Positions 2,057-19,769 of a stretch of DNA of 32,000 nucleotides are shown here, piece after piece. The translations under genes were made by a program, and so were the position numbers. The notes under the pieces are model-generated. The model made no database searches. It was not told the origin of the DNA and saw nothing but the letters and a program-made list of their open reading frames with translations. This stretch comes from Pseudodesulfovibrio mercurii (GTDB lineage: Bacteria; Desulfobacterota; Desulfovibrionia; Desulfovibrionales; Desulfovibrionaceae), in NCBI RefSeq assembly GCF_000189295.2, contig NC_016803.1, positions 2,580,001 to 2,612,000 of the forward strand, written 5' to 3'. The first letter of the stretch is position 1. Each line of letters opens with the position of its first letter.

Positions 2057-2058
2057 CC

Positions 2059-2697: not shown

Positions 2698-2788
2698 CCG
2701 CCCGTCCCCCGGACGCGCGACAAGAGCCCGCCGCCCCCCCTCTGTTCGGGAGGCGCGGCCGGATGCTTTCGGCGCGTCCGCCGCATGC

Positions 2789-3830: not shown

Positions 3831-3860
3831 TTGACAAAAAATAGCGTTCATTCTAATTAT
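3831..3860 (+). promoter_or_regulatory. candidate sigma70-type promoter for the RTX-like gene
   Basis: Perfect TTGACA at 3831-3836, an 18-nt AT-rich spacer, then AATTAT at 3855-3860. It sits about 55 nt upstream of the AAGGAG RBS (3902-3907) and ATG 3915. The local AT-richness contrasts with the rest of the window. Confidence 0.35.
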
Positions 3861-3914
3861 GATGGGGAGCAATTGCGGCGGCATCCCCTGGAACCTTTTT
3901 CAAGGAGCGCGGTC

Positions 3915-6419: not shown

Positions 6420-6580
6420 GGTGATAGATGGTGTTCTTCGAGGTCTTGCGGTGATTTCGGAATGGGAATCACACATTTCTTCACACACGTTGAATATAAA
6501 TATGCTAATTATTTTAAATAATTATAGTGCTATTAAAAAATATTGTCAACTTAAGTGAGGTAAGGAGAAAATTCCAATGC

Positions 6581-6664
6581 TGTCGAAGAGAAGACTCGAA
6601 GTGCCACGGCCGAACGGTTACATGGTCTTGAACCATGCGTGTCTACCAATTCCACCACTTCAGC
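6581..6664 (-). tRNA. tRNA-Leu(CAA)-like gene, apparently chimeric or defective (possible pseudogene or att remnant)
   Basis: The reverse strand reads GCTGAAG-TG-GTGGAATTGGTAGACAC-G-CATGG-TTCAAGA-CCATG-(long variable arm)-GGCAC-TTCGAGT-CTTCT-CTTCGAC-A. The D-arm, the anticodon arm (anticodon CAA) and the T-loop are canonical for class II tRNA-Leu. However, the T-stem (GGCAC vs CTTCT) does not pair. The acceptor stem has a C2:A71 mismatch plus a T3:G70 wobble. Confidence 0.55.
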
Positions 6665-6972
6665 ACGTTCCGTCTGTGGCCGCGGGTGGCGCGGCGCGCC
6701 GGCTTGTCATTCGGCGTCAGGTCTAAGGCTGCCCGCCGTTGTCGGCATTTAGGGAGAAGCGTCTGTGACAACTGTCCGGGAACCCGAGACCATCGCCAAT
6801 GACCCCGCATGAATTGCACGGTAGATCGCGGGCCTTCCGCCTCGTGTCCGAGGTCAGGGACTTGTCGGGAGAAAGCCAGGATAAACCCGGTGCCTGTTCC
6901 CTTCGCCGTTGCGACGTGGGCATGAGGGGGCGCTACGCACAGGGCGCTCCCCGGTAAGGATGCATATCGGCC

Positions 6973-7569
6973 TCATCGGGGACAGCAGAGGCCGCTCTCC
7001 TGATTGTACATGAGGGATTTGCGCATGGCGAAGGTGACCGGGAGCCGCGAATTGGCCCAGCCGTTGACCAGGCGACGACCATTGTTCGGGCTGTCGGGGG
7101 TGTGGTCCGGAATGCCCTCGAATCCGTCGAGGATACTGTAGGCCCTGGTGAATCCGGCCTTGGCCAGCCTGTTCACGGCCAGGGCGCTGCGGCTCCCCGA
7201 ACGGCACATGATCATGATGATGTCGCCGGTGCCGAAGCGCGCCTTGACCATCTCCTCGAATTCGGCGTTCGGCTGCATGACGTAGCTTCTGGTCTTGGGG
7301 TTGAAGATGCAGGTCATGAACATGACCGGTATGTTGACCGCCATGGGCGCATGGCCTATCAGGGCGTATTCCTCCGGGGTGCGGCAGTCGACGATGTGCA
7401 CGTTGTCCTTGTCCGCCTCCCATTGGGCATAGGCCTCGGAAGGCGTCACATAGAGATCCAGCACGGTCTGCTTCTTTTCTTCGGACGGCCTTTCCGCGGC
7501 GTATCCGGGGGTGGCGGAGAGGGCCAGGCACAGGATGGCGATCGCCAGTCCGGTTCGTGAAATCAGCAT
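6973..7569 (-). CDS. periplasmic rhodanese-domain sulfurtransferase
   Basis: 198-aa ORF with a GAGGAG RBS. The signal peptide is MLISRTGLAIAILCLALSATPGYA/AE. The rhodanese pattern is HIVDCRTPEEY...GHAP.A.NIP, and the active-site loop reads MCRSGSRSALAV. Confidence 0.85.
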   Translation of the reverse strand: MLISRTGLAIAILCLALSATPGYAAERPSEEKKQTVLDLYVTPSEAYAQWEADKDNVHIVDCRTPEEYALIGHAPMAVNIPVMFMTCIFNPKTRSYVMQPNAEFEEMVKARFGTGDIIMIMCRSGSRSALAVNRLAKAGFTRAYSILDGFEGIPDHTPDSPNNGRRLVNGWANSRLPVTFAMRKSLMYNQESGLCCPR

Positions 7570-7622
7570 GGATTTTCTCCTCGTTGGCCGGGCCTGCGTG
7601 TCGGCCCATCCGGGTTGATGGT

Positions 7623-8105
7623 TTATTGCTCAGCCTGCTTGATAAGCAGCTTGATGTAGTGATTGAGCCGTTTTTCCCTGACCTCGCCTATGAACCGCCA
7701 TTTTTCGACACCATCGGCTCCATAGAGGATCGTCTGGGGAATCGGCTTGTTGCGATGGGAATCGACAACCTCGCTGTTGGACAGGAGGACCGGAAAGGGC
7801 AACGGATGTTCGGACAAGAACTCCCTCGCGTGGTCCCTGTCCGTGTCCAGCGAGACCCCGAGGATGCGGAGATCCTTTTCCGGGTAGCTGTCGCGCAGGG
7901 CCCCGAGCTGGGAAAGGTAGACCCGGCAATGCGGGCACCACGACGCCCAATAGACCAGCAGCAACGGCCGGCCGTCTTCCGCCTGAATCCGTTCGTTCAG
8001 GTCTCGCGCCCCGGTCACGTCCACCGGTCCGGCCTGCGCCGCCGGGCAGATGTTCAACAGCAGCGCCAGGACCGAAACGAAAAACACCATGTTTCCACGT
8101 CGCAT
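7623..8105 (-). CDS. TlpA/ResA-family periplasmic thiol:disulfide oxidoreductase (thioredoxin fold)
   Basis: 160-aa ORF. The signal peptide is VFFVSVLALLLNICPAAQA/GP. It contains LLVYWASWCPHCRVYLSQL with a WCPHC redox motif and the downstream ILGVSLD block typical of the TlpA/AhpC-TSA fold. Confidence 0.85.
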   Translation of the reverse strand: MRRGNMVFFVSVLALLLNICPAAQAGPVDVTGARDLNERIQAEDGRPLLLVYWASWCPHCRVYLSQLGALRDSYPEKDLRILGVSLDTDRDHAREFLSEHPLPFPVLLSNSEVVDSHRNKPIPQTILYGADGVEKWRFIGEVREKRLNHYIKLLIKQAEQ

Positions 8106-8210
8106 GACACGTTCCTATTGGGGAGGAAGGGCGGTTCGATGCACGAAAACGCCCCTCGGGTTTACAGGTGAAGCGGGAAGGCGGAAGGCTGTGCCGACGG
8201 CATCGGCGGC

Positions 8211-9548
8211 CTAGAACGCCCCTTTGTCGGCGGCGACCACGTCGTCCCAGTCCGGCGGCAGCTCGACCTCGCGGGTTACGGGCCCCTTGGCCCCGAACCA
8301 GCCGGGGACGATGATGTTCTTCATTCCGTTGCCCCCCGCGTAGAGGATCAGCAGGTGGTCCGTCTCCGGCGCGGCAATGACCGGTTCCCCGGGGTGTTCG
8401 GCGAGCGTCCTGGTCACCCCCTGCTTCCAGAAATCATTGGCGAACCATTTTTCGTATTCCCCTTTGGGGATGGGGTTCTGTTCGCGGAGTTCCTTGCGGA
8501 TTCTCTCCTTGGTATAGCCTTCGTGCGCGAGCTGATAGGCGGTGTCGCCCGGGATGACCACCAGGATGGTGGGCCACCGGGGACGCTGGTAGGCCAGTCC
8601 GGCCAGGTGGCGACCCATGAGGCGCATCACGTCCGGGCCGCTCCAGCCGTGGGCCACGGCGACGCGCCAGCCTTCCGCGCCGAGCACGGTGACGGCGTTG
8701 GCGTCGGCCGGCAGGCCCATATCCTCGTTGAACGAAGGCCATGGGTTGCCATCCGGATTCTCCACGATGACCATGCCGTGTTCCGCCGGTGAACCGAGGC
8801 AGGACATGTCCGTGATGCCGGGCCAGCTGCCGCCGATGTTGTTGATGATCAGTTGCAGGGCGCGGCCGATGGAGGCGTTTCCCCGGTTGCCGCGCCCCAT
8901 GACGTTGAACCCGGTGTTCAGGCCGATCTGCCTGGCGATCGGGCCGGTGATGATGATGCAGGGAACGTCGGGGCTGGTGGTCGTGGACATGCCGCGCAGG
9001 TCGAAGTCCGGGTCCGCGATGGCCCGGACCGCCGCGATCAGGATGGGCATGTGCACCGGGCGGCAGCCCGCCATGATCGCGTTCACGGCGATTTTCTCCA
9101 CCGTGGCCACGCCGTTCATGGGCGCGAGGGTGGCCACCTCATATGCTCTTTCGAGATCGGTGCCCGTGAGCATGCTCTTCAGACGTTCGAAGGTCGGGAC
9201 GACGACGGGCAGCCCGTCGGTCCAGCCGCGCTTGTAGAAAAGATCGTTGATGGCGGCGCTTCCGTCACCCCGGACGCGCATCCTTTCCACGTCCGTTTCG
9301 GGGAATTCGCCCGCAAGGGGAGGATATTCGAGGCCCATGGAGTCCCTCACACGGCGAAGCGCCATGTCCACGAACGAGCCGTCATCGCGAACCCCGGCCG
9401 GGTTGCAGACCCAGACGATGTCGTCGCCGCCGAGATCCGTTACCGGGGACTGCCCGGCCAGGGATTCGGGGACGCTCCCCGCTCCGAGGCTCCACAACAG
9501 GGCCATGAGGGCGATCAGCGCGCCGCCTTGCAACCTTTTGCTGCCCAT
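8211..9548 (-). CDS. secreted protein of unrecognised family; paralog of the C-terminal domain of the adjacent selenoprotein
   Basis: 445-aa ORF with an AAGGAGG RBS and a signal-peptide-like GGALIALMALLWSLGAGS. It aligns by eye with 9609-10862. KRGWTDGLPVVVPTFERLKSMLTGT matches KRKWSGGMPIIPPTPEAVAAMLKGT. VEKIAVNAIMAGCRPVHMPILIAAVRAIADPDFDLRGMSTTTSPDVPCIIITGPIARQIGLN matches VELVAALGVMSGCKPEHMPLLLSTIKAFSDPRVDWQGCNTTTAATVPVVIISGPILDKLGIG. Confidence 0.8.
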   Translation of the reverse strand: MGSKRLQGGALIALMALLWSLGAGSVPESLAGQSPVTDLGGDDIVWVCNPAGVRDDGSFVDMALRRVRDSMGLEYPPLAGEFPETDVERMRVRGDGSAAINDLFYKRGWTDGLPVVVPTFERLKSMLTGTDLERAYEVATLAPMNGVATVEKIAVNAIMAGCRPVHMPILIAAVRAIADPDFDLRGMSTTTSPDVPCIIITGPIARQIGLNTGFNVMGRGNRGNASIGRALQLIINNIGGSWPGITDMSCLGSPAEHGMVIVENPDGNPWPSFNEDMGLPADANAVTVLGAEGWRVAVAHGWSGPDVMRLMGRHLAGLAYQRPRWPTILVVIPGDTAYQLAHEGYTKERIRKELREQNPIPKGEYEKWFANDFWKQGVTRTLAEHPGEPVIAAPETDHLLILYAGGNGMKNIIVPGWFGAKGPVTREVELPPDWDDVVAADKGAF

Positions 9549-9608
9549 GCCGTCCCCTCCTTTTGGAAGGAGCCCGGCCCACTCGGGCCGGGCTCCTGTT
9601 TGTATCGG

Positions 9609-11360
9609 TTAGTCCTCAATCAGGACGGACACCGGTTGCGTCACGGTTGCGAACGGCAGCCACAGCTGGGACTGCTTGCCGGGACCGCCGGTAACCACGA
9701 TGTGGAATGAATCGGGGTTCATGAAGCGCGGCATGAGCGTCTCGCCGTCGTAGTCCTTGACGAAGTCCGGCGGCATGCAGCCGAGAGGTCCGGACGTGTA
9801 GTACTTGAACGGCTTGACGGTATGCTTCTGCATGAACGCCTTCACATCGGCCTTGTTGGGGAAGTCCTTGTAGATGGTCGCCGCGTGTTCCGGGCAGAGC
9901 ATCATGAAGGCGAAGGTGATCTGGTTGTAGCGCTTTCCGCTCGGCTTGCCGTATTCCGCGTAGCACGCGCCGATGCCGCTGGCCGCTCCGGACACACCGC
10001 TGGAAAGGGTGTCGAGCAGGGCGGAACCCGAGGCGCTGTTGTGATCCACGTTGGCGTTGCCGGGGTAGGCGCCGAACACCGTCACGACGTTGTCCGTGGC
10101 CTTGAAGCCCATTTCCTCGGCGTAGGTCTGCTTCCACGGCGTTTCCTTGGCGTTTTCACCGAAGACCGCCGCGACATGGTCGCTGGGCATTCCCTGCGTG
10201 CTCTTGTCGATGACCGGCGGGACGGAGCCGCCGACAAGGTCGCCGACAAGGTTGATGAAGTAGCCGAGCGCACTGTTCACGGGCATGAAACTGCCCAGTT
10301 CGCCGGTCGAATAGCCGATGCCCAGCTTGTCGAGGATCGGCCCGCTGATGATGACCACCGGCACGGTGGCGGCGGTGGTCGTGTTGCAGCCCTGCCAATC
10401 CACCCGCGGGTCGCTGAAGGCCTTGATCGTGGACAGAAGCAGAGGCATGTGCTCGGGCTTGCAGCCGGACATCACGCCCAGGGCGGCAACGAGTTCAACC
10501 GTCAGTTGGCCCATGCGCGGGGGCACGTTCCAGAGCACTTCGGAGGGGTCGTGCCTGGTGCCCTTGAGCATGGCCGCCACGGCTTCGGGAGTGGGCGGAA
10601 TGATCGGCATGCCGCCGGACCACTTGCGCTTCGCGAAGATGGCGTTCAGATCCGCGTAGGTTCCGGTGATCTTCACCCGCCGCGCGGGATAGGGGGGCAT
10701 TGCCTTTGTATCCTGGGCAGCCTGCGGCTTCCAGTTCAAGGCAGCGTCGATGATGGCCGGGAAGGCCTTGTCGGCTTTGGCCCGGACCTCTTCAAGGGGA
10801 ATCATTCCGATGGGATGCGGCACTTCGACAAAGCACATGTCGGAGATGCCGATACTGGCCATGGTCCCTCGGGCGAGCCCGAGGAAGGAGTTGGTCGCGA
10901 CGGTAACGGTGGGGATGCCAAGCTGCTCAACGTTGGACTGGTCAACTACCAGCCATGAAGTGCAGGAGCCTCAATCGCATTGGGAGGCGATCACCAGATC
11001 CGCTCCCATGTCCTTGAGCGCCTTCGCGATGCGCTTGGATTCCACCTTGTTGCCCGAGATCTTGTTCAGGGAGGGGTCAACTTCCCAGGCCTTGACGATC
11101 TTGGCCGAGGGGTACTTTTCGGCCATCAATTCCGTCAGCCGCTGCAGGAAATTGTTGCCGTTGTGCTTGCCGTTCCAGCGAAACACTATGGTCTTCCCTT
11201 CGAGGGTGTCGGGACGCGCCGCGGGCTTGATGTTCGCCTGTTTGACGACGCCGGTTGGGTTGAGGACCTCCCATTCCTGCGCCTGCTCGGCGGCTATTGC
11301 GGGGGAGGTCAGCAGGCCCAGTAGAGCCAGCAGGAAAAGGCCGATTCGTATCTTCATCAT
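9609..11360 (-). CDS. exported UGSC-motif selenoprotein (GrdB/PrdB-like Sec segment) fused to an uncharacterised ~400-aa domain; in-frame TGA at 10973-10971 read as Sec
   Basis: Track ORFs 10971..11393 and 9609..10862 share one frame (1785 nt = 595 codons). One TGA and 36 stop-free codons separate them: ...KDMGADLVIASQCD-U-GSCTSWLVVDQSNVEQLGIPTVTVATNSFLGLARGT-MASIGISDMCFVEVPHPIGMIP. The start is ATG 11360 or 11357, just after AAGGAG (11369-11364). The signal peptide is MKIRIGLFLLALLGLLTSPAIA/AEQ. The stop is TAA at 9611-9609. Confidence 0.7.
10935..10954 (-). promoter_or_regulatory. candidate bacterial SECIS hairpin
   Basis: On the coding strand, 16 nt after the TGA, the sequence is GGCUGGU-AGUUG-ACCAGUCC. 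This forms a 7-bp stem with one G:U pair and a 5-nt apical loop containing GU. Its position fits the usual 16-37 nt window between UGA and loop. Folded by eye only. Confidence 0.4.
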
Positions 11361-11389
11361 TTTCTCCTTTTGCCCAAGGCGGAGCCCCG

Positions 11390-12103
11390 TCACTTCACAC
11401 CGGTGCTCTTATCCCGGGACAGTTTTTCGAACCACAACGGATTATGCCTTTGCACGAAATTCAGCGGCACCAGGCCGGTAAGCATGGAGCGCATGGCCGG
11501 ACCCTCGCCCGGGGCGAGTGCGGCCATGTAGATGTGGACAGGGATGAAGATGGCCATCAGCCCCGCGCAGGCGAAGTGAATGAGCAGGTACCAACGCATC
11601 AACGCCTCGCTTTCCGGCCCGCCCGAGAAAAGAAGCATGAGAACGCCGGTCGCCGCCAGGCCCAGGCCGCACAACACCGCAAAGACGGCCACGATCTTCT
11701 GCCCCGCGTTGTAGAAGCCTTGGGGAGGAAGGGTCGCGTCCAGGCCGAGCCGGCCCATGAGGCGTGCGCCCAGCACCAGCGAGAGCCCCTTGCGCAGGCA
11801 CCACTTCAGGTCGTCCTTCAGGTGCAACCGGGTGATCTCATACAGGAATGGGATCGCGACCGACGGGGTCCGCAGGAGCAGGAACAGCAGATAGGCCGCG
11901 ATCCACAGGCAGCCGAGGGCGACGTGCAGCCGCAGCACGCCCAGGGAGCCGAGCATTCCGGTCCACAGATCCGACCACCACTGGCCGATGGGCTGCATGT
12001 CGGGATTCGCGAGCATTCCGAATCCGGTAAAGGTGAGCAGAAGCCAGCATGCGGCGTTGAACCAATGCATCAATATCGCGCTGAACGCGTGTCGGCGGAT
12101 CAT
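11390..12103 (-). CDS. membrane di-haem cytochrome b subunit (FdnI/PhsC/Ni-Fe-hydrogenase cytochrome b family)
   Basis: Lies within ORF 11390..12208. The start is ATG 12103, overlapping the upstream TGA (ATGA coupling). MIRRHAFSAILMHWFNAACWLLL...LRLHVALG...IHFACAGLMAIFIPVHIY contains conserved His residues in TM helices, as in b-type cytochrome anchors. Confidence 0.8.
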   Translation of the reverse strand: MIRRHAFSAILMHWFNAACWLLLTFTGFGMLANPDMQPIGQWWSDLWTGMLGSLGVLRLHVALGCLWIAAYLLFLLLRTPSVAIPFLYEITRLHLKDDLKWCLRKGLSLVLGARLMGRLGLDATLPPQGFYNAGQKIVAVFAVLCGLGLAATGVLMLLFSGGPESEALMRWYLLIHFACAGLMAIFIPVHIYMAALAPGEGPAMRSMLTGLVPLNFVQRHNPLWFEKLSRDKSTGVK

Positions 12104-12828
12104 GCCTGCTCCCCCTTGTCCCCATGTGTGTCCTCGGCAAGGCCGGGACAGAAAAGATGTTCGACAAACACGCCCGCCACTCCGAACAAGGCCAGGCCTC
12201 CCAGCCATTTCACGCCCTTGGAGACGATGGCCATGGCAGCCAGCCCCTCGGGCATCCGGACTTCACCGGGCCAGTCGGTGGGGGTTGTGGCCCCCAGATA
12301 GGTGAGCGTGGGCCGGGTGTCCCGGCTCGACGGGACGACATGGACGTTCACGTTGGCCGCCAGCACCGCCGAGACGGGATCTTGGGGATCGTCGGCGTTC
12401 CCGAAGATGCGGCAATTCATGGGGCAGACCTGCACGCAGGCCGGAGGCTGGCCCGGCACCCCGGCGTCGCGGCAGTAGTCGCACTTGTCCGCCGTGCCCG
12501 TATGCGGATTCAGGAAACGGGCGTTGTACGGACAGGCGGCCACGCAGCCGCCGCAGCCGATACAGCGGTCATGGTCGACGACCACGCTGCCGTCCCCGGC
12601 CTTGTAGGTTGCGCCGGTGGGACAGGCCTCCACGCAGCTCGGCTTGTCGCAATGCATGCACGCTCCGGGCTGGTAGCGCAGCCCGGTGGGAGAATCCGGG
12701 GCCGGGGTCTCGCGAACCCAGTTCCGGGTCAGGGAGTAAGGCACCCCGTTCCGTTGTTGGCAGGCCACGATGCACGCCTTGCAGTTCACGCACCGGGTTG
12801 CGTCGATCGCCATGACATACCGAGCCAT
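12100..12828 (-). CDS. 4Fe-4S ferredoxin-type electron-transfer subunit with C-terminal TM anchor (FdnH/PsrB/PhsB-like)
   Basis: 242-aa ORF whose ATG lies immediately after the TAA of the catalytic subunit. Four Cys clusters are present: CVNCKACIVAC, CMHCDKPSCVEACP, CIGCGGCVAACP, CDYC...CVQVCP. A hydrophobic tail, WLGGLALFGVAGVFVEHLF, follows. Confidence 0.9.
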   Translation of the reverse strand: MARYVMAIDATRCVNCKACIVACQQRNGVPYSLTRNWVRETPAPDSPTGLRYQPGACMHCDKPSCVEACPTGATYKAGDGSVVVDHDRCIGCGGCVAACPYNARFLNPHTGTADKCDYCRDAGVPGQPPACVQVCPMNCRIFGNADDPQDPVSAVLAANVNVHVVPSSRDTRPTLTYLGATTPTDWPGEVRMPEGLAAMAIVSKGVKWLGGLALFGVAGVFVEHLFCPGLAEDTHGDKGEQA

Positions 12829-14997
12829 TTATGCCCCCTGCAGTTTGCGGATCGTGCAGCCGACGCCGTTGACCTGGGAGGAAATGCGATCCCAGTAGTT
12901 GGGCACGATCAGGTTGATGTGATCGCTCCGGTTTTGCGCGAATGGAGCGGTCCTGTTGAAATGCGACGGGGTGAACACGATGCCGGGCACGATCTCGGCG
13001 CACAGTTCCACTCTCGCCTCCAGGCTTCCGGTGGCGGTCTCGAGGGCCACCATGTCGCCGTCCTTCACCCCCATTTCCGCCGCGGTATCCGGATGGATGT
13101 TGACGAAACGTCCGTGGGAGAACCTGGACAGCGCCTCGGAATAGTTCGTCAAGGTCTGCTGCCATTGGGTCAACACCTTGCCTTGCAGCAGCACCAGCGG
13201 GTACTTGGGGTCGTTGTCACGCCCCTGGGGATTGCCGCGGGGGTAGGACCAGTTGATGCGGCCGAACACGCTGTCATCTACCGGCATCCTGCCGTCCGGG
13301 GTCAGGAGCTTGCCCTGGGTGAAGGACGTCCCCAGCCGTTCGGGATCGTTCTCGTGGTAACGCGGCCAGACCATGCCGCCCTGGGCCTTGCGCAGGCGCT
13401 CCAGGGTCAGCCCCCGCCAGGAGGGCACCAGGGAGACGAACAGACGGTACAGGTCCTCGGGCCGCTCGAACCGGGGATACCTGTCGCCGGCGATGCGCCG
13501 CCCGATGTCCCGGTAGAACTGCCAGTCGGGCACGCAGGACCCCGGCGCATCCACGACCTTTTCGCGCCAGACCACCTGCTTTTCCGCGCCGTAGTGCGAC
13601 CCTTGGCTTTCCGGGGAGAACGTCGCGGGCATGAACAGATTCGCCACCTCGGCCTCTTCGGTCAGGAAGAAGCCGCGATGCACCACGAAGGGGACCTTCT
13701 GTATGGCCGCGCGGACGTTCTTGCTGTCCGGGTAGCGGCGGTAGGAGGAGTTGAGAAACAGGATGTCGAGTTGGCCCTTGCTCATGGCCCTGAACAACCG
13801 TCGGAAGTTCATCCTGGGCTTGTCGTTGGGGCCGCAGATGTGGTCGATGAATTCGTCCTCTCCGGCGGGCTTGCCCCCTTCCATGGTCAGCAGGCCCTTG
13901 CCGCTGCCGATGAGGTTGTCGCGCAGCCCCTGGAGCAGCATGACGGCCCGCAGGCTCTGGATGCCGTTGGTGTAGCGCGACAGGGAACCGCCGAGCCAGA
14001 TGATGGTCCTTCGGCTCCTGCCCAGGGTGTCGGCGAATTCCTCCACCAGTTCTTTCGGTACGCCCGTGATTCCGGCGACCTTTTCCAGGGTGTACGGCTC
14101 TACGTCCTCCCGCAGCATGTCGAGATCGGAGATCAGCTGCCCGGCCCGGTCGGCGTCATAGCTGCCGGTCGCCAGAATGTGCCGGATCGCGCCCATGGCC
14201 ATGGCGCCGTCGGTTCCGGGCCGGGGAGAGAGCTGGCTGGAACAGCACAGGCTGGTGCGCGTGCGCCTTGGATCGAGGTAGACGATGTTCACGCCCGCAT
14301 TCCGCGCCTTGTCCAGCCAATTGCTGTAGGGCGGATACAGTTCGGCGATATTCGCGCCCCAGAGGACGAGGGTCTCGCAGTTGCATATCTCGTTGACCGT
14401 GGTGGTGGAGGTGTTCACCCCGGTCATGAGGCCGAGCATGTTGGAGGCGCTGCTGATGCACACCTCGCCCGCAGGCATCAAGTTCCTGCTGCCCATGAAG
14501 GAAAGGGTCATTTCGGCGGCCAGTTCGCTCTCCCGGCAATCCCACAGGGGCCCCGTGAGGGCGATGCGGTCCCCGGCCGTTTCGCCGTGCTCGCGTTGAC
14601 AGGCCTCGACCCGCTGGACAATGAGATCAAGGGCGTCGGTATACGCAATGGGCTTCCAGGTACCGTCCGGTTGCTTCAGGAGGGGCTCGGTGATCCTCGA
14701 CGGGCTGCGCACCAGCTCCACCAGGGAGAGTCCCTTGGGACACATGGTCCCATGGGTCCAGGGATTGTCCGGCTCGCCGACCAGGCTCTCGATCCGGCCA
14801 TTGCGGACCAGCGCCGTATAGGTGCACCTGACCTGACAAAAAGGACAGTATCCCTTGACCTTGGTGATCTCGCCCTTGGGTCGCGCCCCACGCAGGTTCA
14901 GGGCCTGGGCGGGGGCGGCGTCCGCCGCCGCCACGCCTCCTGCCAACAGCGCGGAACTCAACCGGAGAAATCGCCGCCTAGAATAACTTTCGCTCAT
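12829..14997 (-). CDS. Tat-exported molybdopterin (bis-MGD) oxidoreductase catalytic subunit, Psr/Phs/Ttr-like
   Basis: Lies within ORF 12829..15012; the preferred start is ATG 14997, after GAGAGAGG. The twin-arginine signal is MSESYSRRRFLRLSSALLAGGVAAADA. The N-terminal FeS motif is CPFCQVRCTY...CPKG, and a likely Cys Mo-ligand region reads AGEVCISSASN. Its length (~722 aa) is typical of PsrA/PhsA-type enzymes. The substrate cannot be read from the sequence. Confidence 0.9.
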   Translation of the reverse strand: MSESYSRRRFLRLSSALLAGGVAAADAAPAQALNLRGARPKGEITKVKGYCPFCQVRCTYTALVRNGRIESLVGEPDNPWTHGTMCPKGLSLVELVRSPSRITEPLLKQPDGTWKPIAYTDALDLIVQRVEACQREHGETAGDRIALTGPLWDCRESELAAEMTLSFMGSRNLMPAGEVCISSASNMLGLMTGVNTSTTTVNEICNCETLVLWGANIAELYPPYSNWLDKARNAGVNIVYLDPRRTRTSLCCSSQLSPRPGTDGAMAMGAIRHILATGSYDADRAGQLISDLDMLREDVEPYTLEKVAGITGVPKELVEEFADTLGRSRRTIIWLGGSLSRYTNGIQSLRAVMLLQGLRDNLIGSGKGLLTMEGGKPAGEDEFIDHICGPNDKPRMNFRRLFRAMSKGQLDILFLNSSYRRYPDSKNVRAAIQKVPFVVHRGFFLTEEAEVANLFMPATFSPESQGSHYGAEKQVVWREKVVDAPGSCVPDWQFYRDIGRRIAGDRYPRFERPEDLYRLFVSLVPSWRGLTLERLRKAQGGMVWPRYHENDPERLGTSFTQGKLLTPDGRMPVDDSVFGRINWSYPRGNPQGRDNDPKYPLVLLQGKVLTQWQQTLTNYSEALSRFSHGRFVNIHPDTAAEMGVKDGDMVALETATGSLEARVELCAEIVPGIVFTPSHFNRTAPFAQNRSDHINLIVPNYWDRISSQVNGVGCTIRKLQGA

Positions 14998-15042
14998 TAC
15001 CGCCTCTCTCACTGGACGCCCTGTCGGTGTCGGTTGCCAGTA

Positions 15043-15369
15043 TCAGCAGGTACAATCGCTGGCGATGCCTTTGATCGTCGTGTTCCAACGCAGCTTTTCC
15101 ATCTGATCAGCGGGGATGTTCAGTTCCTCGAGATCGTCGTAATTCTGGAAGCCGCCCAGGTCTTCGCGGAGTTGTATGATCTTCTTGGCCAGATCCAGGT
15201 CCACCACGCCGGTGGCCGCCAACTCCTCGGCGGTGACGCTGTTCAGTTCCAGGCGCTGTTTCACTTCCTTCCGTTCGCTCTCGGCCTGAACGTCCGTGCA
15301 AACACCCAGGGTGAACGCCGGGATGAGAAGCGCCCATGTCAACGAGAGAATGGCCATCATCTTTTTCAT
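15043..15369 (-). CDS. small exported helix-hairpin-helix (ComEA-like) protein
   Basis: Lies within ORF 15043..15483; the preferred start is ATG 15369, after GAAGGGAAAAAAG. The signal peptide is MKKMMAILSLTWALLIPAFTLGV. LELNSVTAEELAATGVVDLDLAKKIIQLREDLGGFQNYDDLEEL fits the ComEA HhH motif. The protein ends ...GIASDCTC. Confidence 0.7.
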   Translation of the reverse strand: MKKMMAILSLTWALLIPAFTLGVCTDVQAESERKEVKQRLELNSVTAEELAATGVVDLDLAKKIIQLREDLGGFQNYDDLEELNIPADQMEKLRWNTTIKGIASDCTC

Positions 15370-15464
15370 GTCTTTTTTCCCTTCTATTCCAAGTTGCTTG
15401 GTCCTCAGACGCCCACTGCGGGGCCCGTGCCCCTTGTGCAGCGTCGAATACCTTCTACGTCCCG

Positions 15465-15513
15465 ATTGTAAAAAGCCGTTCAATCGGGTGTGTTGAATTG
15501 TAATTCATTGTAA
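15465..15513 (-). promoter_or_regulatory. three TTACAAT direct repeats (candidate OmpR-type response-regulator binding sites) upstream of the operon
   Basis: The minus strand reads TTACAATgaaTTACAATtca...(25 nt)...TTACAAT. Plus-strand attgtaa copies lie at 15507-15513, 15497-15503 and 15465-15471. The first two are spaced exactly 10 bp start to start. The third lies inside an 8-bp hairpin, cccgattg/caatcggg. All are 96-145 nt upstream of ATG 15369. Confidence 0.4.
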
Positions 15514-15520
15514 AATGGGG

Positions 15521-15539
15521 ACCGGGCCGAGGCCCGGAC
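15521..15539 (-). terminator. weak terminator-like hairpin after the histidine-kinase gene
   Basis: On the minus strand, a CCGGG...CCCGG GC-stem is followed by tccccatttta. The stem is short, so support is low. Confidence 0.3.
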
Positions 15540-15597
15540 AAAGCGGCGAAAGGGGATGGACGGACGAGCCCAGCGGGGGGATGCCGGGCGGTCCCTC

Positions 15598-17067
15598 CTA
15601 ATGGGACAGGGGGAAGAAAAGGGAGACGGCGAATCCGTGCGGCGACCGGTTGGCGAATTCCAGGCGCCCTCCGCAGATTTCCATGCACTGCTTGACGATC
15701 GACAGGCCCAGGCCGGAACCGCCGGGATAATCGGCGGCGCCCTCTCCCCGGAAAAAAGGCTCCGTGAGATGCGCCAGTTCAGTGGGGGGCACGCCCGGTC
15801 CGTTATCCTCGACACTGACGAGGACCTCGTCCACCAGGCATTGCACCCGGATCGTGATGACGCCCTGTTCGGCGGCGTAGCGGATGGCGTTGCGTAGGGC
15901 GTTGCCCACCATGCGGCGCAGGCACTCCAGATCGGTGCGGATGTAAAACTCCTGCTCCGGACGTTCAAACTCGATGTCCGCGCTTTGCCCTTCCAGCGCT
16001 ATGATCTCATTGATCGTATGATACAACGGAACGATCTCGATGCGCGGTTGGCCGGGGAGACCCTCGGAGCGCAGATACCCGAGGACGTCCTCCACCAGGA
16101 CGGCGATCTCCTCGACGTCCCGGCTGATCTTGCGTGCGCGGTTCGCGAAATCGCCGTCCAGGCGTTCCTCCAGCACGGCGAGGCCGAATTTCGTCCTGGC
16201 AATGGGCGAGCCCAGTTCGTGGGCGATTTGACGGATGAAGCGACGCTGCCGGAACATCTGCTGCATCAGCTGATTGGACATGCTGTCCACGGCGTCGGCC
16301 AGGCGTCTGATTTCGTCCTTGCGGCCCAGGGACGGGAGATAGTCGTCCTTGCGCTTCTCGGTCAGCACGTACTCCCCGGCCGCTATGCGCTCCGCCTTTT
16401 CCGTGACCTGGCCGATGGGTTTGGCCAGATGCCACACGAACGGCCACCACCAGAGAAAGCACAGGCCCAGCACGACCACCATGGTGACCAGTACACCGTA
16501 CATGTTGAAGTACAACCCGTGCCCGGAAAAGGACGTGGAGGAGGAGATCAACAGGACATAGTGCAGCTTGTGGTTCTCGTCGGGAACGAAGACCGGCCTG
16601 CCATACCAGTAGCGGGTCGGGTCGCCCGCACGAAGATAGATCGCGTTCTGCATGGGGAGGAATCCGCTTTCCGCTTCCAGCACGGCGTTGATGTCCTGCC
16701 GTTCCGAACTTCCGGGCTCCGCGCAGAAGGAGACCTGCGGCTTGGGCATCTTGCTCGCCTCGGCCATGACCGTGTCCGGGATGGCGCCGTGGGTGGGAAT
16801 GTGCCCCATGTCGTCCAGGGCCTGCACATGGAAGCGGATATCGTAGGATTCGCTGTAGCGGTCGAGCACCTTCTGCCAGTCATAAATCGGCTTGTACTGG
16901 AGATTGGCGGCCACAACCTGCATGACGGAGTTGATGCCGCCGCGGAACAGGACTTGGGCGTAGGCCCCGTTGCTGCCGATCAGCAGCCAGCTGCCGCCGA
17001 GCACGACAACCCCCAGCCAGACGAGGTTCAGCACCGACCAGATCATGAATTTTGTGTATAAGCGCAT
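15598..17067 (-). CDS. sensor histidine kinase (2 TM, periplasmic sensor domain, HAMP, HisKA, HATPase_c)
   Basis: 489-aa ORF. TM1 is MIWSVLNLVWLGVVVLGGSWLLI, followed by ~150 aa of periplasmic sequence and TM2 VLVTMVVVLGLCFLWWWPFVW. The H-box is FIRQIAHELGSPIAR, the N-box is VGNALRNAIRYA, and the G-boxes are DNGPGVP and GGSGLGLSIV. Confidence 0.9.
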   Translation of the reverse strand: MRLYTKFMIWSVLNLVWLGVVVLGGSWLLIGSNGAYAQVLFRGGINSVMQVVAANLQYKPIYDWQKVLDRYSESYDIRFHVQALDDMGHIPTHGAIPDTVMAEASKMPKPQVSFCAEPGSSERQDINAVLEAESGFLPMQNAIYLRAGDPTRYWYGRPVFVPDENHKLHYVLLISSSTSFSGHGLYFNMYGVLVTMVVVLGLCFLWWWPFVWHLAKPIGQVTEKAERIAAGEYVLTEKRKDDYLPSLGRKDEIRRLADAVDSMSNQLMQQMFRQRRFIRQIAHELGSPIARTKFGLAVLEERLDGDFANRARKISRDVEEIAVLVEDVLGYLRSEGLPGQPRIEIVPLYHTINEIIALEGQSADIEFERPEQEFYIRTDLECLRRMVGNALRNAIRYAAEQGVITIRVQCLVDEVLVSVEDNGPGVPPTELAHLTEPFFRGEGAADYPGGSGLGLSIVKQCMEICGGRLEFANRSPHGFAVSLFFPLSH

Positions 17068-17098
17068 GCCGTTTCCCTGTAGCCAATGAATCCTGTCG

Positions 17099-17821
17099 CT
17101 ATTTCATGAACATGTAGCCGCTCCCTCGAACGGTGCGCAGGTAGGAGGGCGTGCGTGGAGAGTCCCCCAGCTTGCGCCGAAGGGAGGAAATGTGCATGTC
17201 CACGGAGCGGTCAAAGATGCAGTATTCCCTGCCGAAGATATCGGAAATAAGCTGATCGCGGGAAAAGACCCGCCCCGGGTGCGAGGCCATCCTGTACAGG
17301 AGCTGGAATTCGATGGTGCTCAGGTCAAGCGTCTTGCCGTTCAGGTCGGCCTGCATTCGGGTGCTGTCGAGCATCAGGCCGTGTATGACAACGGTCTCGC
17401 CGTCGCAGGATTCTTCCTCGACCATGTCTTCCGCGCTGGTCCGGCTGCGGCGCAGCACCGCGCGCAGGCGCGCCAACAGTTCCCGTGGGGCGAAGGTCTT
17501 GGGCACATAATCGTCGGCGCCCATCTCCAATCCCACGATCTTGTCGCTGACGTCCGTCTGGGCCGAGATGATTATCACCGGCAGCTTGGGAGCCTTGGCG
17601 CGGAGCTGTTTGAGAATCGTGAGGCCGTCGATGTCCGGCAGCATCATGTCTAGGAGGATGGCGTCGAACGCGCTGGACAGCGCCATCTGCAGCCCGTCGT
17701 TGCCGTCCAGGGCATACTGGACCTCCAGACCGTAGGCCCCCATGAAATCGCTGACGACCCCGCACAGGTTCTCGTCGTCATCGATCATCAACACATGGTA
17801 TGTATTGTTTTCGGCTTCCAT
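17099..17821 (-). CDS. OmpR/PhoB-family response regulator
   Basis: Lies within ORF 17099..17905; the preferred start is ATG 17821 (MEAENNTYHVLMIDDDENL). The receiver domain has the phospho-acceptor context ILLDMMLPDIDG. The winged-helix output reads LDLSTIEFQLLYRMASHPGRVFSRDQL...YLRTVRGSGYMF. Confidence 0.9.
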   Translation of the reverse strand: MEAENNTYHVLMIDDDENLCGVVSDFMGAYGLEVQYALDGNDGLQMALSSAFDAILLDMMLPDIDGLTILKQLRAKAPKLPVIIISAQTDVSDKIVGLEMGADDYVPKTFAPRELLARLRAVLRRSRTSAEDMVEEESCDGETVVIHGLMLDSTRMQADLNGKTLDLSTIEFQLLYRMASHPGRVFSRDQLISDIFGREYCIFDRSVDMHISSLRRKLGDSPRTPSYLRTVRGSGYMFMK

Positions 17822-17905
17822 GCTTCTCCCCTCGCAGGGCAAGATATCAACCTGTGAAATAATCTCGTTCCATTGAATGGCTTTCCTCAATGGTTCGATG
17901 CGCAA

Positions 17906-18187: not shown

Positions 18188-18766
18188 GGTATCCCTCGCT
18201 TGGCCGCGAGTTAGTCAGCGGTAACGCGGGAAACTCGGCGGGAGGGGGAAAACCCCTCCGCCGAACCTTGCGCGGCGATTTCCCGGGGTGATACGACAGG
18301 GCATAACCAGTCCGGTTGAGTAACTAGAAGGAGGTAAATCGCACCCAAGGCGCGTTCATAAGTTTTGACGACAGTCTAAACTGATGAACGCTTAAACAGG
18401 CACTAACATGCCGTAACACCTAACATTTCGCTGCCGTGCATTTCCAAACGGCACGCTTTCACATCCAAACGCCAGGCTGAAACACAGCACCCCCGCCGGA
18501 CAAACGACAGGTATCTAGAAATCTGCCGTTGTCGAAATTCCCCCACGGCCACCGCTTTATGCGCAGGACGAATGAGCCTGCGTGGTGGCACCCCTTATTA
18601 AATGGATTCCTGAATTTTCCTTCAGTGGGAAACGGACATTGATTTGTCCCGTGTCGGTTGTTGTGTGGCGCGTTCGTGCCATAGGCAGGTCATTTCCCGG
18701 CAAACGGGGAAGGTCCGACCTGCTTTGTCCCGGGGCACTGCCCCGAACTTCAGGAAGGATAATTCC

Positions 18767-19726: not shown

Positions 19727-19728
19727 AA

Positions 19729-19762
19729 GAAGCCCCGCCCTTTTCGGTGGGGCTTCCTTTTG
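19729..19762 (+). terminator. Rho-independent terminator
   Basis: gaagccccgcc (19729-19739) pairs with ggtggggcttc (19746-19756) with one G:U. The stem is followed by cttttggg and sits 3 nt after the TAG of the recombinase gene. Confidence 0.65.
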
Positions 19763-19769
19763 GGCATGA

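What the first reader, a model, noticed from the sequence alone, without database searches (positions are those of the whole stretch)
6973..15513. Candidate uncharacterised periplasmic chalcogen-handling system: Mo-oxidoreductase (ABC-type) + exported UGSC selenoprotein + paralog + TlpA thioredoxin + rhodanese
Eight co-directional, tightly spaced genes form one apparent operon with ATGA or adjacent stop/start junctions. In order they are a ComEA-like HhH protein, a Tat-signal bis-MGD oxidoreductase, a 4Fe-4S subunit with a TM tail and a cytochrome b. Then come a Sec-containing U-G-S-C protein, its secreted paralog, a WCPHC thioredoxin and a CRSGSR rhodanese. Every soluble component has an export signal, either twin-arginine or Sec-type, so the chemistry is predicted to be periplasmic. 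Psr/Phs-type reductases with a periplasmic rhodanese (Sud-like) are established. I do not recognise the insertion of an exported selenoprotein with a GrdB/PrdB-like Sec segment, a large unknown domain present twice, and a dedicated TlpA-type reductant. A plausible model runs as follows. Quinol-derived electrons pass through cytochrome b and the FeS subunit to the Mo enzyme, which reduces a sulfur or selenium oxyanion or polysulfide. The rhodanese carries persulfide or perselenide. The U-x-x-C protein performs reductive cleavage and is recycled by the TlpA-like protein. A dedicated RR/HK pair lies immediately upstream.
Basis: partly seen in the sequence, partly recalled or inferred. Interest (0 to 1): 0.9.

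Follow-up and report, generated by a model that had tools for sequence, protein, structure and literature searches.

The report
Exported selenoprotein operon with molybdoenzyme
A mobile, sensor-regulated operon in a sulfate-reducing bacterium links a membrane-anchored molybdenum enzyme to exported selenocysteine proteins of a large uncharacterised family, which points to an undescribed periplasmic redox pathway whose substrate is still unknown.

Summary
Window 6973-17905 (minus strand, Pseudodesulfovibrio mercurii ND132) carries ten co-directional, tightly spaced genes: RR, HK, small HhH protein, Tat bis-MGD enzyme, 4x[4Fe-4S] protein with a TM tail, FdnI-type cytochrome b, exported UGSC selenoprotein (in-frame TGA 10971-10973 plus a covarying hairpin), secreted paralogue, TlpA-like WCPHC protein and rhodanese.

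- UGSC is an already named, functionally unknown selenoprotein family (PF24696, NF041046).
- The "unknown domain" belongs to a very large family (about 7000 clusters at 50% identity) with no Pfam or NCBIfam model and no PDB analogue. It sits next to a UGSC domain in 73 of 80 genomes. Most of those versions are cytoplasmic and have no Mo enzyme nearby.
- Exported versions occur in Thermodesulfobacteriota-type loci. Among those built on close relatives of this Mo enzyme or this paralogue, the orthologous sensor kinase, the Mo-FeS-cytochrome b trio and the UGSC genes stay together through several rearrangements (19 of 21 full-flank loci).
- TlpA is variable (11 of 21). This rhodanese is unique to the window (0 of 86).
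- The Mo subunit is Cys-ligated and Fdh/Nap/Nas-like, not Psr/Phs/Ttr/Arr.
- The HhH protein ends in an invariant D-C-x-C, which suggests a carrier arm.

Most likely this is a quinone-linked periplasmic thiol/selenol redox pathway. The substrate is unknown.

The parts
17099..17905 (-). OmpR-type response regulator (likely start at ATG 17821)
   Evidence: Response_reg + Trans_reg_C. Orthologues lie beside the system in related loci.
15598..17067 (-). Sensor histidine kinase with a periplasmic sensor domain (aa about 26-195), HAMP, HisKA and HATPase
   Evidence: Pfam. CpxA/EnvZ/RstB-like, all below cut-offs. The sensor domain is 30-65% identical in 44 related loci covering every arrangement type.
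15043..15369 (-). Small exported helix-hairpin-helix protein ending in D-C-T-C-stop; proposed swinging-arm thiol carrier
   Evidence: HHH_3 at 29.5 bits against a cut-off of 27; the ComEA models are not reached. Signal peptide present, and a C-terminal DC(T/N)C is invariant in 18 distinct homologues. The carrier role is my inference.
12829..14997 (-). Tat-exported bis-MGD molybdo/tungsto-enzyme catalytic subunit, Cys-ligated
   Evidence: Three Pfam domains. SRRRFLR motif. Cys186 in GEVCISS aligns with the Cys/Sec metal ligand of formate dehydrogenases and is followed by Ile, not His. Nearest relatives are Fdh/Nas/Nap, and none reaches a cut-off.
12100..12828 (-). Four-cluster [4Fe-4S] electron-transfer subunit with a C-terminal membrane anchor
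   Evidence: Fer4_11 and related models; NrfC/TtrB/DsrO-like below cut-offs. Hydrophobic C-terminal tail in the translation.
11390..12103 (-). FdnI/PhsC-type membrane cytochrome b (quinone/quinol site)
   Evidence: PF01292 E 3e-21; FdnI model 84.9 bits against a cut-off of 115.9. ATGA overlap with the FeS gene.
9609..11360 (-). Exported UGSC selenoprotein: signal peptide, UGSC domain (aa 31-206, Sec130-Gly-Ser-Cys133), then a partner domain of about 380 aa
   Evidence: PF24696 122.6 bits; NF041046 118.8 bits against a cut-off of 125. Read-through translation. The genome record splits the gene: DND132_2344 is its N-terminal part. Close homologues are called as the post-TGA part only.
10971..10973 (-). 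In-frame TGA read as selenocysteine
   Evidence: TGA at 82 of 87 homologous sites.
10937..10953 (-). Hairpin G-CUGGU/AGUUG/ACCAG-U, 18 nt after the UGA: candidate bacterial SECIS
   Evidence: Six pairs formed in 20 of 20 close relatives with one compensatory double change. An equivalent hairpin shows a G-C/C-G swap in distant relatives. The single-sequence fold z-score is not significant.
9568..9597 (-). 13-bp GC-rich intercistronic hairpin between the selenoprotein gene and the paralogue, followed by an RBS rather than a U-run
   Evidence: Function not tested.
8211..9548 (-). Secreted stand-alone partner-domain protein (DND132_2342), with the nearly invariant Cys162 in a MAGC motif
   Evidence: 100% match to P0001. 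No Pfam or NCBIfam family. AF2 pLDDT 84, pTM 0.85, with no convincing PDB analogue. Cys conserved in 107 of 109 stand-alone exported paralogues.
7623..8105 (-). Exported TlpA/ResA/DsbE-like thiol:disulfide oxidoreductase (WCPHC)
   Evidence: AhpC-TSA, Redoxin and Thioredoxin models. A homologue is present in 30 of 86 related loci.
6973..7569 (-). Exported single-domain rhodanese (CRSGSR loop); lineage-specific accessory
   Evidence: PF00581 51.8 bits. No homologue in 86 related loci. Other exported rhodanese types lie in the UGSC clusters L084 and L085.

Best explanation
This is a horizontally mobile operon, regulated by a two-component system, for a periplasmic thiol/selenol-based redox pathway wired to the quinone pool.

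Shown here:
- An exported two-part (seleno)enzyme: a UGSC domain carrying the Sec-x-x-Cys redox centre, plus a partner domain of novel fold. One partner copy is fused and one is free.
- This enzyme is kept together with a membrane-anchored three-subunit molybdoenzyme (Tat catalytic subunit, four-cluster FeS subunit with a TM tail, FdnI/PhsC-type cytochrome b).
- An orthologous envelope sensor kinase stays with both.

Inferred:
- During turnover the Sec130/Cys133 pair cycles between selenol/thiol and selenenylsulfide, as in GrdB/PrdB-type Sec enzymes.
- The molybdoenzyme complex moves electrons between menaquinol/menaquinone and this protein-thiol chemistry.
- The transfer runs either through the small exported HhH protein, whose invariant C-terminal D-C-x-C tail would act as a swinging-arm carrier entering the Mo funnel, or through a low-molecular-weight sulfur or selenium intermediate.
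- TlpA (a second reductant route) and rhodanese (sulfane S/Se transfer) are lineage-specific helpers.

The physiological substrate and the direction of electron flow are not established.
For: Anatomy:
- Ten co-directional genes with ATGA or short junctions.
- Export signals on every soluble part.

Sec:
- Conserved TGA plus a covarying hairpin.

Linkage:
- L081-L083 keep HhH-Mo-FeS-cytb-UGSC-paralogue plus the TCS.
- 19 of 21 full-flank loci built on relatives of the Mo enzyme have a UGSC gene, in at least 5 different gene orders. These include a Cys-type stand-alone UGSC.
- The orthologous kinase sensor domain is found in 44 loci.

UGSC plus partner domain as an obligate pair:
- 73 of 80 genomes.

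Redox nature:
- U-x-x-C motif with local PrdB/GrdB similarity around the Sec.
- Two remote family members are fused to a ferredoxin:thioredoxin-reductase catalytic domain.

Electron links in exported clusters that lack the Mo complex:
- MauE/DoxX in L085 and a multihaem cytochrome c in L084.

Carrier idea:
- Invariant C-terminal DC(T/N)C on an exported 80-aa protein.
- This protein also accompanies the UGSC genes in L086, where there is no Mo enzyme.
Against: - No experiment or transcript data are available.
- Relatives of the Mo-FeS-cytb trio at about 60% identity also occur without any UGSC, HhH or this TCS within 7-10 kb (L143, L144; L110 lacks UGSC). The Mo enzyme may therefore have a small-molecule substrate of its own.
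- Type B loci have neither the HhH protein nor the partner domain.
- The Cys of the partner domain is replaced by Ala in a third of the exported fusions, so its role is unclear.
- The AF2 model of the whole fusion is weak (pTM 0.53), so I could not see how the two domains face each other.
- Most UGSC/partner pairs are cytoplasmic, sit in organic-acid catabolic contexts and have no dedicated electron module.
Confidence: 0.5

Rival explanations
1. The Mo enzyme is a quinol-driven reductase of a free sulfur or selenium species (polysulfide, thiosulfate, tetrathionate, selenite or selenate). The rhodanese carries the persulfide or perselenide. The U-x-x-C protein cleaves it reductively. TlpA re-reduces the selenoprotein.
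For: - The Mo + FeS + FdnI/PhsC-type cytochrome b architecture equals that of PhsABC (architecture of PhsABC from established knowledge).
- Exported rhodaneses recur, as different subfamilies, in three exported UGSC clusters: the window, L084 and L085.
- TlpA lies next to cytochrome b in 30 of 86 loci.
Against: - The Mo subunit is nearer to Fdh/Nas/Nap than to PhsA/PsrA, and far from TtrA and ArrA.
- This rhodanese is absent from 86 of 86 related loci, and TlpA from about half.
- The UGSC/partner pair is mostly cytoplasmic in aerobes, beside Bug-type binding proteins, CoA-transferases and hydratases. That does not suggest sulfur or selenium oxyanion chemistry.
Confidence: 0.2
2. The complex works in the Fdh-N direction. 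The Mo enzyme oxidises a periplasmic reduced compound, or reduced protein thiols/selenols made by the UGSC enzymes, and passes the electrons to menaquinone. The operon would then be an energy-conserving dehydrogenase or disulfide-forming system rather than a reductase.
For: - Closest sequence relatives are formate dehydrogenases.
- The subunit set is that of FdnGHI: FdnI model 84.9 bits, and an FeS subunit with a C-terminal anchor.
Against: - The His that follows the Sec/Cys ligand in formate dehydrogenases is Ile here, so formate is unlikely to be the substrate.
- The same architecture runs in reverse in PhsABC (established knowledge).
- A TlpA-type reductant in the operon argues for a need for reducing power.
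Confidence: 0.15
3. Two unrelated functions ride on one genomic island. The Mo-FeS-cytb trio is an ordinary anaerobic respiratory reductase for an unknown small molecule. The UGSC/partner proteins, TlpA and rhodanese are an independent envelope thiol-redox or stress module.
For: - The operon lies between a tRNA-Leu gene and two integrase genes, with lower GC than its flanks.
- Relatives of the Mo trio exist without UGSC (L143, L144, L110).
- UGSC clusters exist without Mo (L001, L084-L086).
- The kinase is CpxA/EnvZ-like.
Against: - Linkage survives at least five different gene orders.
- The same sensor domain accompanies both modules.
- The junctions in the window are tight.
Confidence: 0.1
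4. A periplasmic system for thiophilic metal(loid)s such as Hg, As, Sb or Te. The Sec-x-x-Cys and C-terminal CxC sites would bind the element, and the Mo enzyme would change its redox state.
For: - Sec/Cys and vicinal Cys motifs are good soft-metal ligands (established chemistry).
- The host is a mercury methylator (organism identified; that trait is from my own knowledge).
- The kinase has weak similarity to heavy-metal sensor kinases (108 bits against a cut-off of 292).
Against: - No Mer, Ars, Arr or Aio homology: ArrA 39 bits, arsenite oxidase 59 bits.
- The system is common in human-gut Desulfovibrionaceae-like contigs.
- The heavy-metal kinase model is only the sixth-best hit.
Confidence: 0.05

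Closest known systems
UGSC family (seleno)proteins (Pfam PF24696, NCBIfam NF041046; 'UGSC-containing protein' of Zhang and Gladyshev)
   Same: - The N-terminal domain matches the family model across the Sec position.
- It has the U-G-S-C motif, an in-frame TGA and a downstream hairpin.
- A fusion to an unknown domain was already noted in ocean metagenomes (PMC2398784).
   Different: - Here the protein has a signal peptide and an N-terminal arm about 35 aa longer.
- It sits in an operon with a molybdoenzyme complex.
- The described family has no known function, and its typical members are cytoplasmic.
PhsABC thiosulfate reductase and FdnGHI formate dehydrogenase-N (three-subunit complex iron-sulfur molybdoenzymes with an FdnI/PhsC-type cytochrome b)
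   Same: - Tat-exported bis-MGD subunit.
- Four-cluster ferredoxin subunit with a membrane anchor.
- Dihaem-type cytochrome b of family PF01292.
- Periplasm-facing active site.
   Different: - The catalytic subunit reaches no curated cut-off (Fdh-alpha 270 of 666, PhsA 143 of 694).
- It has a Cys ligand followed by Ile, not the Sec/Cys-His of formate dehydrogenases.
- It is encoded with a CxC-tailed HhH protein and selenoproteins, which neither system has.
Psr polysulfide reductase with the Sud rhodanese-type sulfur carrier (Wolinella)
   Same: A periplasmic Mo enzyme thought to receive its substrate from a small exported sulfur-carrying protein. An exported rhodanese is present in the window.
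   Different: - Psr uses an NrfD-type haem-free anchor and a PsrA-clade subunit (2vpw only E 1e-16).
- The rhodanese here is not conserved with the system.
GrdB/PrdB selenoproteins of glycine and D-proline reductase
   Same: Local similarity around a U-x-x-C redox centre (PrdB model E 2e-5). These systems pair a Sec subunit with a separate substrate-binding subunit and recycle the selenenylsulfide with dithiols.
   Different: - Scores are far below the cut-offs (24 of 300).
- There are no GrdA, GrdE or PrdA homologues.
- The partner domain has a different, unmatched fold.
- This system is periplasmic rather than cytoplasmic.
C-terminal-arm sulfur carriers: DsrC (with DsrMKJOP) and SoxY
   Same: A small protein with conserved cysteine(s) at its extreme C-terminus, encoded beside a membrane redox complex. 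The window's FeS subunit is DsrO-like at 133 bits. This likeness rests on recalled features of DsrC and SoxY and was not tested.
   Different: - There is no sequence or fold relation: HhH here, against the DsrC and SoxY folds.
- The motif is D-C-x-C-stop.
- The carrier role here is inference only.

Membership tests
UGSC family (PF24696 / NF041046) | Match to the family HMM above its curated cut-off | tested here: met
   Pfam 122.6 bits against a cut-off of 25, aa 31-206. The stricter NCBIfam equivalog model gives 118.8 bits against 125, just below.
UGSC family (PF24696 / NF041046) | U/C-G-S-C motif with Sec encoded by an in-frame TGA and a downstream SECIS hairpin | tested here: met
   QCD-U-GSC-TSW at TGA 10971-10973. 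TGA at 82 of 87 homologous sites. Hairpin with compensatory changes. Actual Se incorporation is not testable here.
Bis-MGD molybdo/tungsto-enzyme (DMSO reductase superfamily) | Fe4S4 domain + molybdopterin domain + MGD-binding domain, with a protein ligand to Mo/W | tested here: met
   PF04879, PF00384 and PF01568 are all above their cut-offs. Cys186 aligns with the Cys/Sec ligand of formate dehydrogenases.
Formate dehydrogenase alpha subunit | Equivalog HMM cut-off, and His directly after the Sec/Cys ligand | tested here: not met
   TIGR01591 269.8 bits against 666. The ligand is followed by Ile (GEVC-I-SS against riC-H-gps).
PsrA / PhsA polysulfide or thiosulfate reductase | Equivalog HMM cut-off, or closest similarity to solved PsrA | tested here: not met
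   PhsA NF012032 143 bits against 694. 2vpw_A E 1e-16 against 8e-54 for formate dehydrogenase. No full phylogeny was made.
TtrA, ArrA, NapA, DmsA/YnfE (other respiratory reductases) | Equivalog HMM cut-offs | tested here: not met
   TtrA 53 of 1750; ArrA 39 of 1600; NapA 123 of 904; DmsA/YnfE family 100 of 778. SrrA and SrdA references were not available.
FdnGHI/PhsABC-type three-subunit architecture | FeS subunit with a C-terminal TM helix, plus a PF01292 cytochrome b, encoded directly after the catalytic subunit | tested here: met
   Fer4_11 and PF01292 matches, adjacent or overlapping genes, and a hydrophobic tail. The FdnI equivalog cut-off is not reached (84.9 of 115.9). Haem content is not testable.
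ComEA (DNA-binding competence protein) | ComEA HMM cut-offs | tested here: not met
   TIGR00426 27.7 of 53.1; TIGR01259 25 of 152. Only the generic HHH_3 motif passes (29.5 of 27).
TlpA/ResA/DsbE periplasmic thiol:disulfide oxidoreductases | Thioredoxin fold with a CxxC motif and an export signal | tested here: met
   AhpC-TSA, Redoxin and Thioredoxin are above the Pfam cut-offs. WCPHC and a signal peptide are in the translation. No equivalog cut-off is reached (ResA 54 of 170).
Rhodanese sulfurtransferase | Rhodanese domain with a catalytic Cys loop | tested here: met
   PF00581 51.8 of 22.2. The CRSGSR loop is in the translation. Similarity to Sud was not tested.
GrdB / PrdB | Equivalog HMM cut-offs | tested here: not met
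   PrdB 23.9 of 300; GrdB 15.7 of 602. Only about 50 aa around the Sec align.

The most novel reading that the evidence does not exclude
The operon encodes a new kind of respiratory-chain-coupled periplasmic selenoenzyme system. In it, a molybdoenzyme complex exchanges electrons with protein-bound Cys/Sec centres rather than with a free small molecule. Those centres are the D-C-x-C tail of the HhH carrier and the U-x-x-C centre of the UGSC proteins. The large partner-domain family (about 7000 clusters at 50% identity, no Pfam or NCBIfam model, no PDB analogue) would be the substrate-binding or catalytic half of a widespread, still unnamed Sec-dependent enzyme.
Probability: 0.3. Interest if true: 0.85.

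Novelty: new variant of a known kind. Interest (0 to 1): 0.66.

Why it matters
- UGSC proteins are among the most abundant predicted selenoproteins in aquatic metagenomes (PMC2398784). They have had no function for nearly twenty years.
- This operon gives them a defined context: an obligate partner domain, a dedicated sensor kinase, and in sulfate reducers and gut Desulfovibrionaceae-like bacteria a quinone-linked molybdoenzyme. That makes the question experimentally approachable in a cultivable, genetically tractable host.
- It also flags a very large protein family with no Pfam or NCBIfam model and no structural analogue in the PDB.
- It describes a molybdoenzyme clade of unknown substrate that is common in human-gut contigs.
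- It corrects the genome record, which splits the selenoprotein gene at the TGA into separate ORFs. The N-terminal piece is DND132_2344.

Tried and rejected
- **Rfam scan.** Gathering thresholds over the whole window gave no match. The SECIS had to be argued from covariation instead.
- **Single-sequence fold of the post-UGA region.** Not better than shuffles (z 0.21).
- **PDB searches with the partner-domain profile and model.** The sequence search found only noise. Foldseek's best hit was class I fumarate hydratase at E 2e-4 but TM 0.23-0.31, which I rejected as an analogue.
- **AF2 of the whole fusion.** A first alignment misplaced the N-terminal fragments. The final model of homologue P0127 has pTM 0.53, and its Foldseek hits are only generic flavodoxin-like or CheY-like folds. 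Domain packing could not be used.
- **Type B loci.** I looked for a hidden partner domain in three neighbouring ORFs of L132 by profile comparison and found none.
- **FTR-like genes.** None in any fetched locus.
- **att repeats around the putative island.** None convincing.
- **Literature.** Nothing on DUF6282 or on Bilophila + selenoprotein + molybdopterin. Figure S1A of PMC2398784 is an image, so I could not verify that its 'Unknown_1' is this domain.
- **Formate dehydrogenase identity.** Rejected for the Mo subunit.
- **ComEA identity.** Rejected for the HhH protein.

Full report
**What is there**

The window comes from Pseudodesulfovibrio mercurii (Desulfovibrio sp. ND132). The 8211-9548 product is identical to DND132_2342.

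On the minus strand, ten genes follow one another with adjacent, ATGA-overlapping or short (29-105 nt) junctions:
- Response regulator 17099-17905.
- Histidine kinase 15598-17067.
- Small HhH protein 15043-15369.
- Tat-signal bis-MGD subunit 12829-14997.
- Four-cluster FeS protein with a hydrophobic C-terminal tail 12100-12828.
- FdnI-type cytochrome b 11390-12103.
- 583-residue protein with an in-frame TGA 9609-11360.
- Its 445-residue paralogue 8211-9548.
- TlpA/ResA-like WCPHC protein 7623-8105.
- Rhodanese with a CRSGSR loop 6973-7569.

The two large proteins are true paralogues: 33% identity over 266 residues, E 9e-42. HhH, UGSC protein, paralogue, TlpA and rhodanese begin with Sec-type signal peptides. 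The Mo subunit has SRRRFLR. The FeS subunit has no signal of its own, as is usual for such partners.

**Is the TGA a selenocysteine codon?**

Yes, as far as sequence can show.
- The UGSC family model (PF24696) aligns from residue 31 to 206, straight across the TGA.
- At 87 homologous U/C-G-S/A-C sites in 166 fetched loci, the codon is TGA 82 times.
- Nearly all close homologues in the protein database are called only from the first ATG after the TGA (405-443 aa). The N-terminal 128-aa pieces are called as separate ORFs. In the ND132 record the N-terminal piece is DND132_2344.
- Eighteen nucleotides after the UGA lies the hairpin G-CUGGU/AGUUG/ACCAG-U.
- In 20 distinct close relatives all six pairs form, with one C-G to U-A double change.
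- In 52 distinct distant relatives an equivalent 5-bp hairpin always forms and swaps G-C for C-G in 20 sequences. A register shifted by one collapses.
- Rfam has no matching model, and the single-sequence fold is not special. The covariation carries the argument.

**What the unknown domain is**

- It has no Pfam or NCBIfam family.
- A profile of 18 members finds nothing among PDB sequences.
- A confident AlphaFold model (pLDDT 84, pTM 0.85) has no convincing structural analogue. The best hit is class I fumarate hydratase at E 2e-4 with TM-scores of only 0.23-0.31.
- The family is nevertheless huge. The profile hits 6954 clusters at 50% identity with E up to 1e-3, and 2138 with E up to 1e-30. 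At least 594 places in species-representative genomes carry it, across Burkholderiales, Acidimicrobiales, Dehalococcoidia, Rokubacteria, Methylomirabilota and others.
- In 73 of the 80 best genome loci a UGSC domain is fused to it or encoded next to it, on either side. UGSC plus this partner domain is therefore an old, obligate pair. A UGSC/'Unknown_1' fusion was mentioned in 2008 (PMC2398784). The figure is an image, so identity could not be checked.
- The literature still lists UGSC proteins as having unknown function (PMC1976440, PMC9312934, PMC13188914).
- Databases name some members 'thiol-disulfide oxidoreductase', with no experimental basis that I could find.

**Most of these pairs are cytoplasmic**

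- In the distant loci the UGSC proteins start directly with the domain. They have no signal peptide and 89-100 residues before the Sec.
- Their neighbours are Bug/TctC-type binding proteins, short-chain dehydrogenases, ABC ATPases, CaiB/BaiF CoA-transferases, enoyl-CoA hydratases and luciferase-like oxidoreductases.
- None of the 80 has a homologue of the window's Mo subunit, cytochrome b or HhH protein. One has the FeS protein, two have TlpA and one has the rhodanese.
- Two remote members carry a C-terminal ferredoxin:thioredoxin-reductase catalytic domain. This is the only fusion that speaks to mechanism. It suggests an enzyme whose dichalcogenide must be re-reduced.

**The exported clade and its link to the molybdoenzyme**

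Signal peptides on UGSC proteins appear in Thermodesulfobacteriota-type loci.

The closest relatives of the paralogue (60-72% identity) keep HhH-Mo-FeS-cytb-UGSC fusion (one or two copies, split at TGA)-paralogue plus the RR/HK (L081-L083).

Starting instead from the Mo subunit, a metagenome scan returned 80 loci at 54-74% identity (most 55-62%), mostly from human-gut assemblies. Of the 21 with at least 8 kb on both sides, 19 carry a UGSC gene, 13 the HhH gene, 11 TlpA and none the rhodanese. They fall into nine arrangement signatures, seven of which have UGSC. Examples:
- HhH-Mo-FeS-cytb-TlpA-RR-HK-DUF6282-UGSC fusion.
- UGSC fusion(s)-paralogue-HhH-Mo-FeS-cytb.
- RR-HK-Mo-FeS-cytb-exported unknown protein-exported Cys-type stand-alone UGSC (GDCRACSAW).

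The periplasmic sensor domain of the window's kinase has orthologues (30-65% identity) in 44 of these loci. They cover every arrangement type, including L086, which has the UGSC fusion, DUF6282, paralogue and HhH but no Mo enzyme. Linkage that survives this much reshuffling, together with a shared sensor, is good evidence for one function.

There are counter-examples. L143 and L144 have the Mo trio (or Mo plus FeS) without UGSC, HhH or this kinase, and L110 lacks UGSC.

Exported UGSC clusters without the Mo complex carry other electron-transfer candidates. L085 has a MauE/DoxX membrane protein and an exported rhodanese among at least six UGSC/partner pairs. L084 has an exported multihaem cytochrome c and an exported rhodanese.

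**The molybdoenzyme**

- The catalytic subunit reaches no curated family cut-off.
- Its best scores are Fdh-alpha 270 bits (cut-off 666), NasC 235, PhsA 143, NapA 123, TtrA 53 and ArrA 39.
- Against solved structures it is nearest to archaeal and bacterial formate dehydrogenases (7bkb_D, E 8e-54) and Desulfovibrio NapA (2e-42). PsrA (2vpw) is at 1e-16.
- Cys186 aligns with the Sec/Cys metal ligand but is followed by Ile instead of the formate-dehydrogenase His.
- It is therefore a Cys-ligated member of the Fdh/Nap/Nas branch with unknown substrate. It sits in an FdnGHI/PhsABC-type three-subunit frame: NrfC/TtrB/DsrO-like FeS subunit and FdnI-like cytochrome b.
- That frame runs towards the quinone in Fdh-N and away from it in PhsABC (established knowledge). 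The direction of electron flow cannot be read from the sequence.

**The HhH protein**

It passes only the generic HHH_3 model and fails both ComEA models. All 18 distinct homologues are exported, are about 80 residues long when mature, and end in D-C-(T/N)-C followed by the stop codon.

An invariant cysteine pair at the very C-terminus of a small protein encoded just before a Mo subunit recalls the arm-type sulfur carriers DsrC and SoxY. That comparison is from memory and is an inference, not a test.

**How it most likely works**

Shown: an exported Sec-x-x-Cys protein with its partner domain, a quinone-linked Mo complex and a common sensor kinase are inherited together.

Inferred:
- The UGSC centre cycles between selenol/thiol and selenenylsulfide while acting on a substrate bound by the partner domain.
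- The Mo complex connects this cycle to the menaquinone pool, directly or through the CxC tail of the HhH protein or a small sulfur or selenium intermediate.
- TlpA and rhodanese are optional helpers that P. mercurii has added.

I give this general picture a probability of about 0.5. The rivals are:
- An oxidising, Fdh-N-like direction, 0.15.
- Mere co-location on an island, 0.1.
- A metal(loid) role, 0.05.

One oddity should be kept in view. The nearly invariant Cys of the partner domain (107 of 109 stand-alone exported paralogues) is Ala in a third of the exported fusions, including all members read from two large clusters of homologues (cluster members). The fused and free copies are probably not equivalent.

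**Context**

- The operon lies between a tRNA-Leu gene (6579-6665) and two integrase genes (18644-19726 and 20066-21253).
- Its GC content (57-65%) is lower than that of the flanks (66-72%).
- Relatives also sit beside integrases, transposases or plasmid-type genes.
- It therefore looks like a mobile module, although no att repeats were found.

**Verdict**

The parts belong to known kinds: a complex iron-sulfur molybdoenzyme, a UGSC selenoprotein, TlpA and rhodanese. Their conserved combination appears undescribed in the literature I could search, as do the CxC-tailed carrier and the partner domain, which has no family model and no structural analogue. I rate it a new variant of a known kind, with interest about 0.66.

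Noticed in passing
window 6579-6665 and 18644-21253: A tRNA-Leu(CAA) gene lies just downstream of the rhodanese gene, and two integrase genes (Integrase_1 and Phage_integrase) lie just upstream of the response regulator. GC is 57-65% between them against 66-72% outside. The operon looks like cargo of a genomic island, but no att-type direct repeat was found.
   Followed up: partly
window 9609-11393: The public genome record splits the selenoprotein gene at the TGA into separate ORFs. The N-terminal piece is DND132_2344 (128 aa, annotated hypothetical protein). The record is mis-annotated at the TGA.
   Followed up: yes
window 9568-9597: A perfect 13-bp GC-rich hairpin sits in the 60-nt gap between the selenoprotein gene and the paralogue. 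On the coding strand it is followed by an RBS rather than a U-run. It may be an mRNA processing or stability element, or an attenuator.
   Followed up: no
P0440 and P0441 (remote members of the partner-domain family): These proteins carry a C-terminal ferredoxin:thioredoxin reductase catalytic-chain domain (PF02943) fused after the partner domain. No such gene occurs in any fetched locus.
   Followed up: partly
L085 2351-15561: A Thermodesulfobacteriota-type contig carries at least six tandem UGSC/partner gene pairs. Among them are an exported rhodanese with a YCDC loop and a MauE/DoxX membrane protein. This is a striking local amplification of the family.
   Followed up: partly
L082, L083, L086, L099 (e.g. 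L099 17300-18265): A DUF6282 protein recurs next to the UGSC fusion or the paralogue in four arrangement types but is absent from the window. The L099 copy has a Tat signal. There are no PDB relatives and no literature.
   Followed up: partly
P0127 (595 aa full-length homologue): The only full-length database homologue has Arg at the Sec position (QCD-R-GSC). This could be a TGA to CGA variant, a sequencing error or a translation artefact.
   Followed up: no
L132 14194-15354: In the type B loci an exported protein of about 385 aa with no family match lies between the cytochrome b gene and a Cys-type stand-alone UGSC gene. Profile comparison shows it is unrelated to the partner domain.
   Followed up: partly
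window 3831-5735: Long overlapping ORFs lie on both strands (634 aa on + and 608 aa on -) just beyond the tRNA gene. Neither has a Pfam match, so which one is real is unknown.
   Followed up: no
window 12124-15471 (+): A 1115-aa ORF runs antisense to the Mo and FeS genes. It is almost certainly a by-product of high GC content, not a gene.
   Followed up: no
window 1837-3415: A LysE-type exporter gene and a chloramphenicol-acetyltransferase-family gene lie upstream of the region. They appear unrelated to the finding.
   Followed up: no
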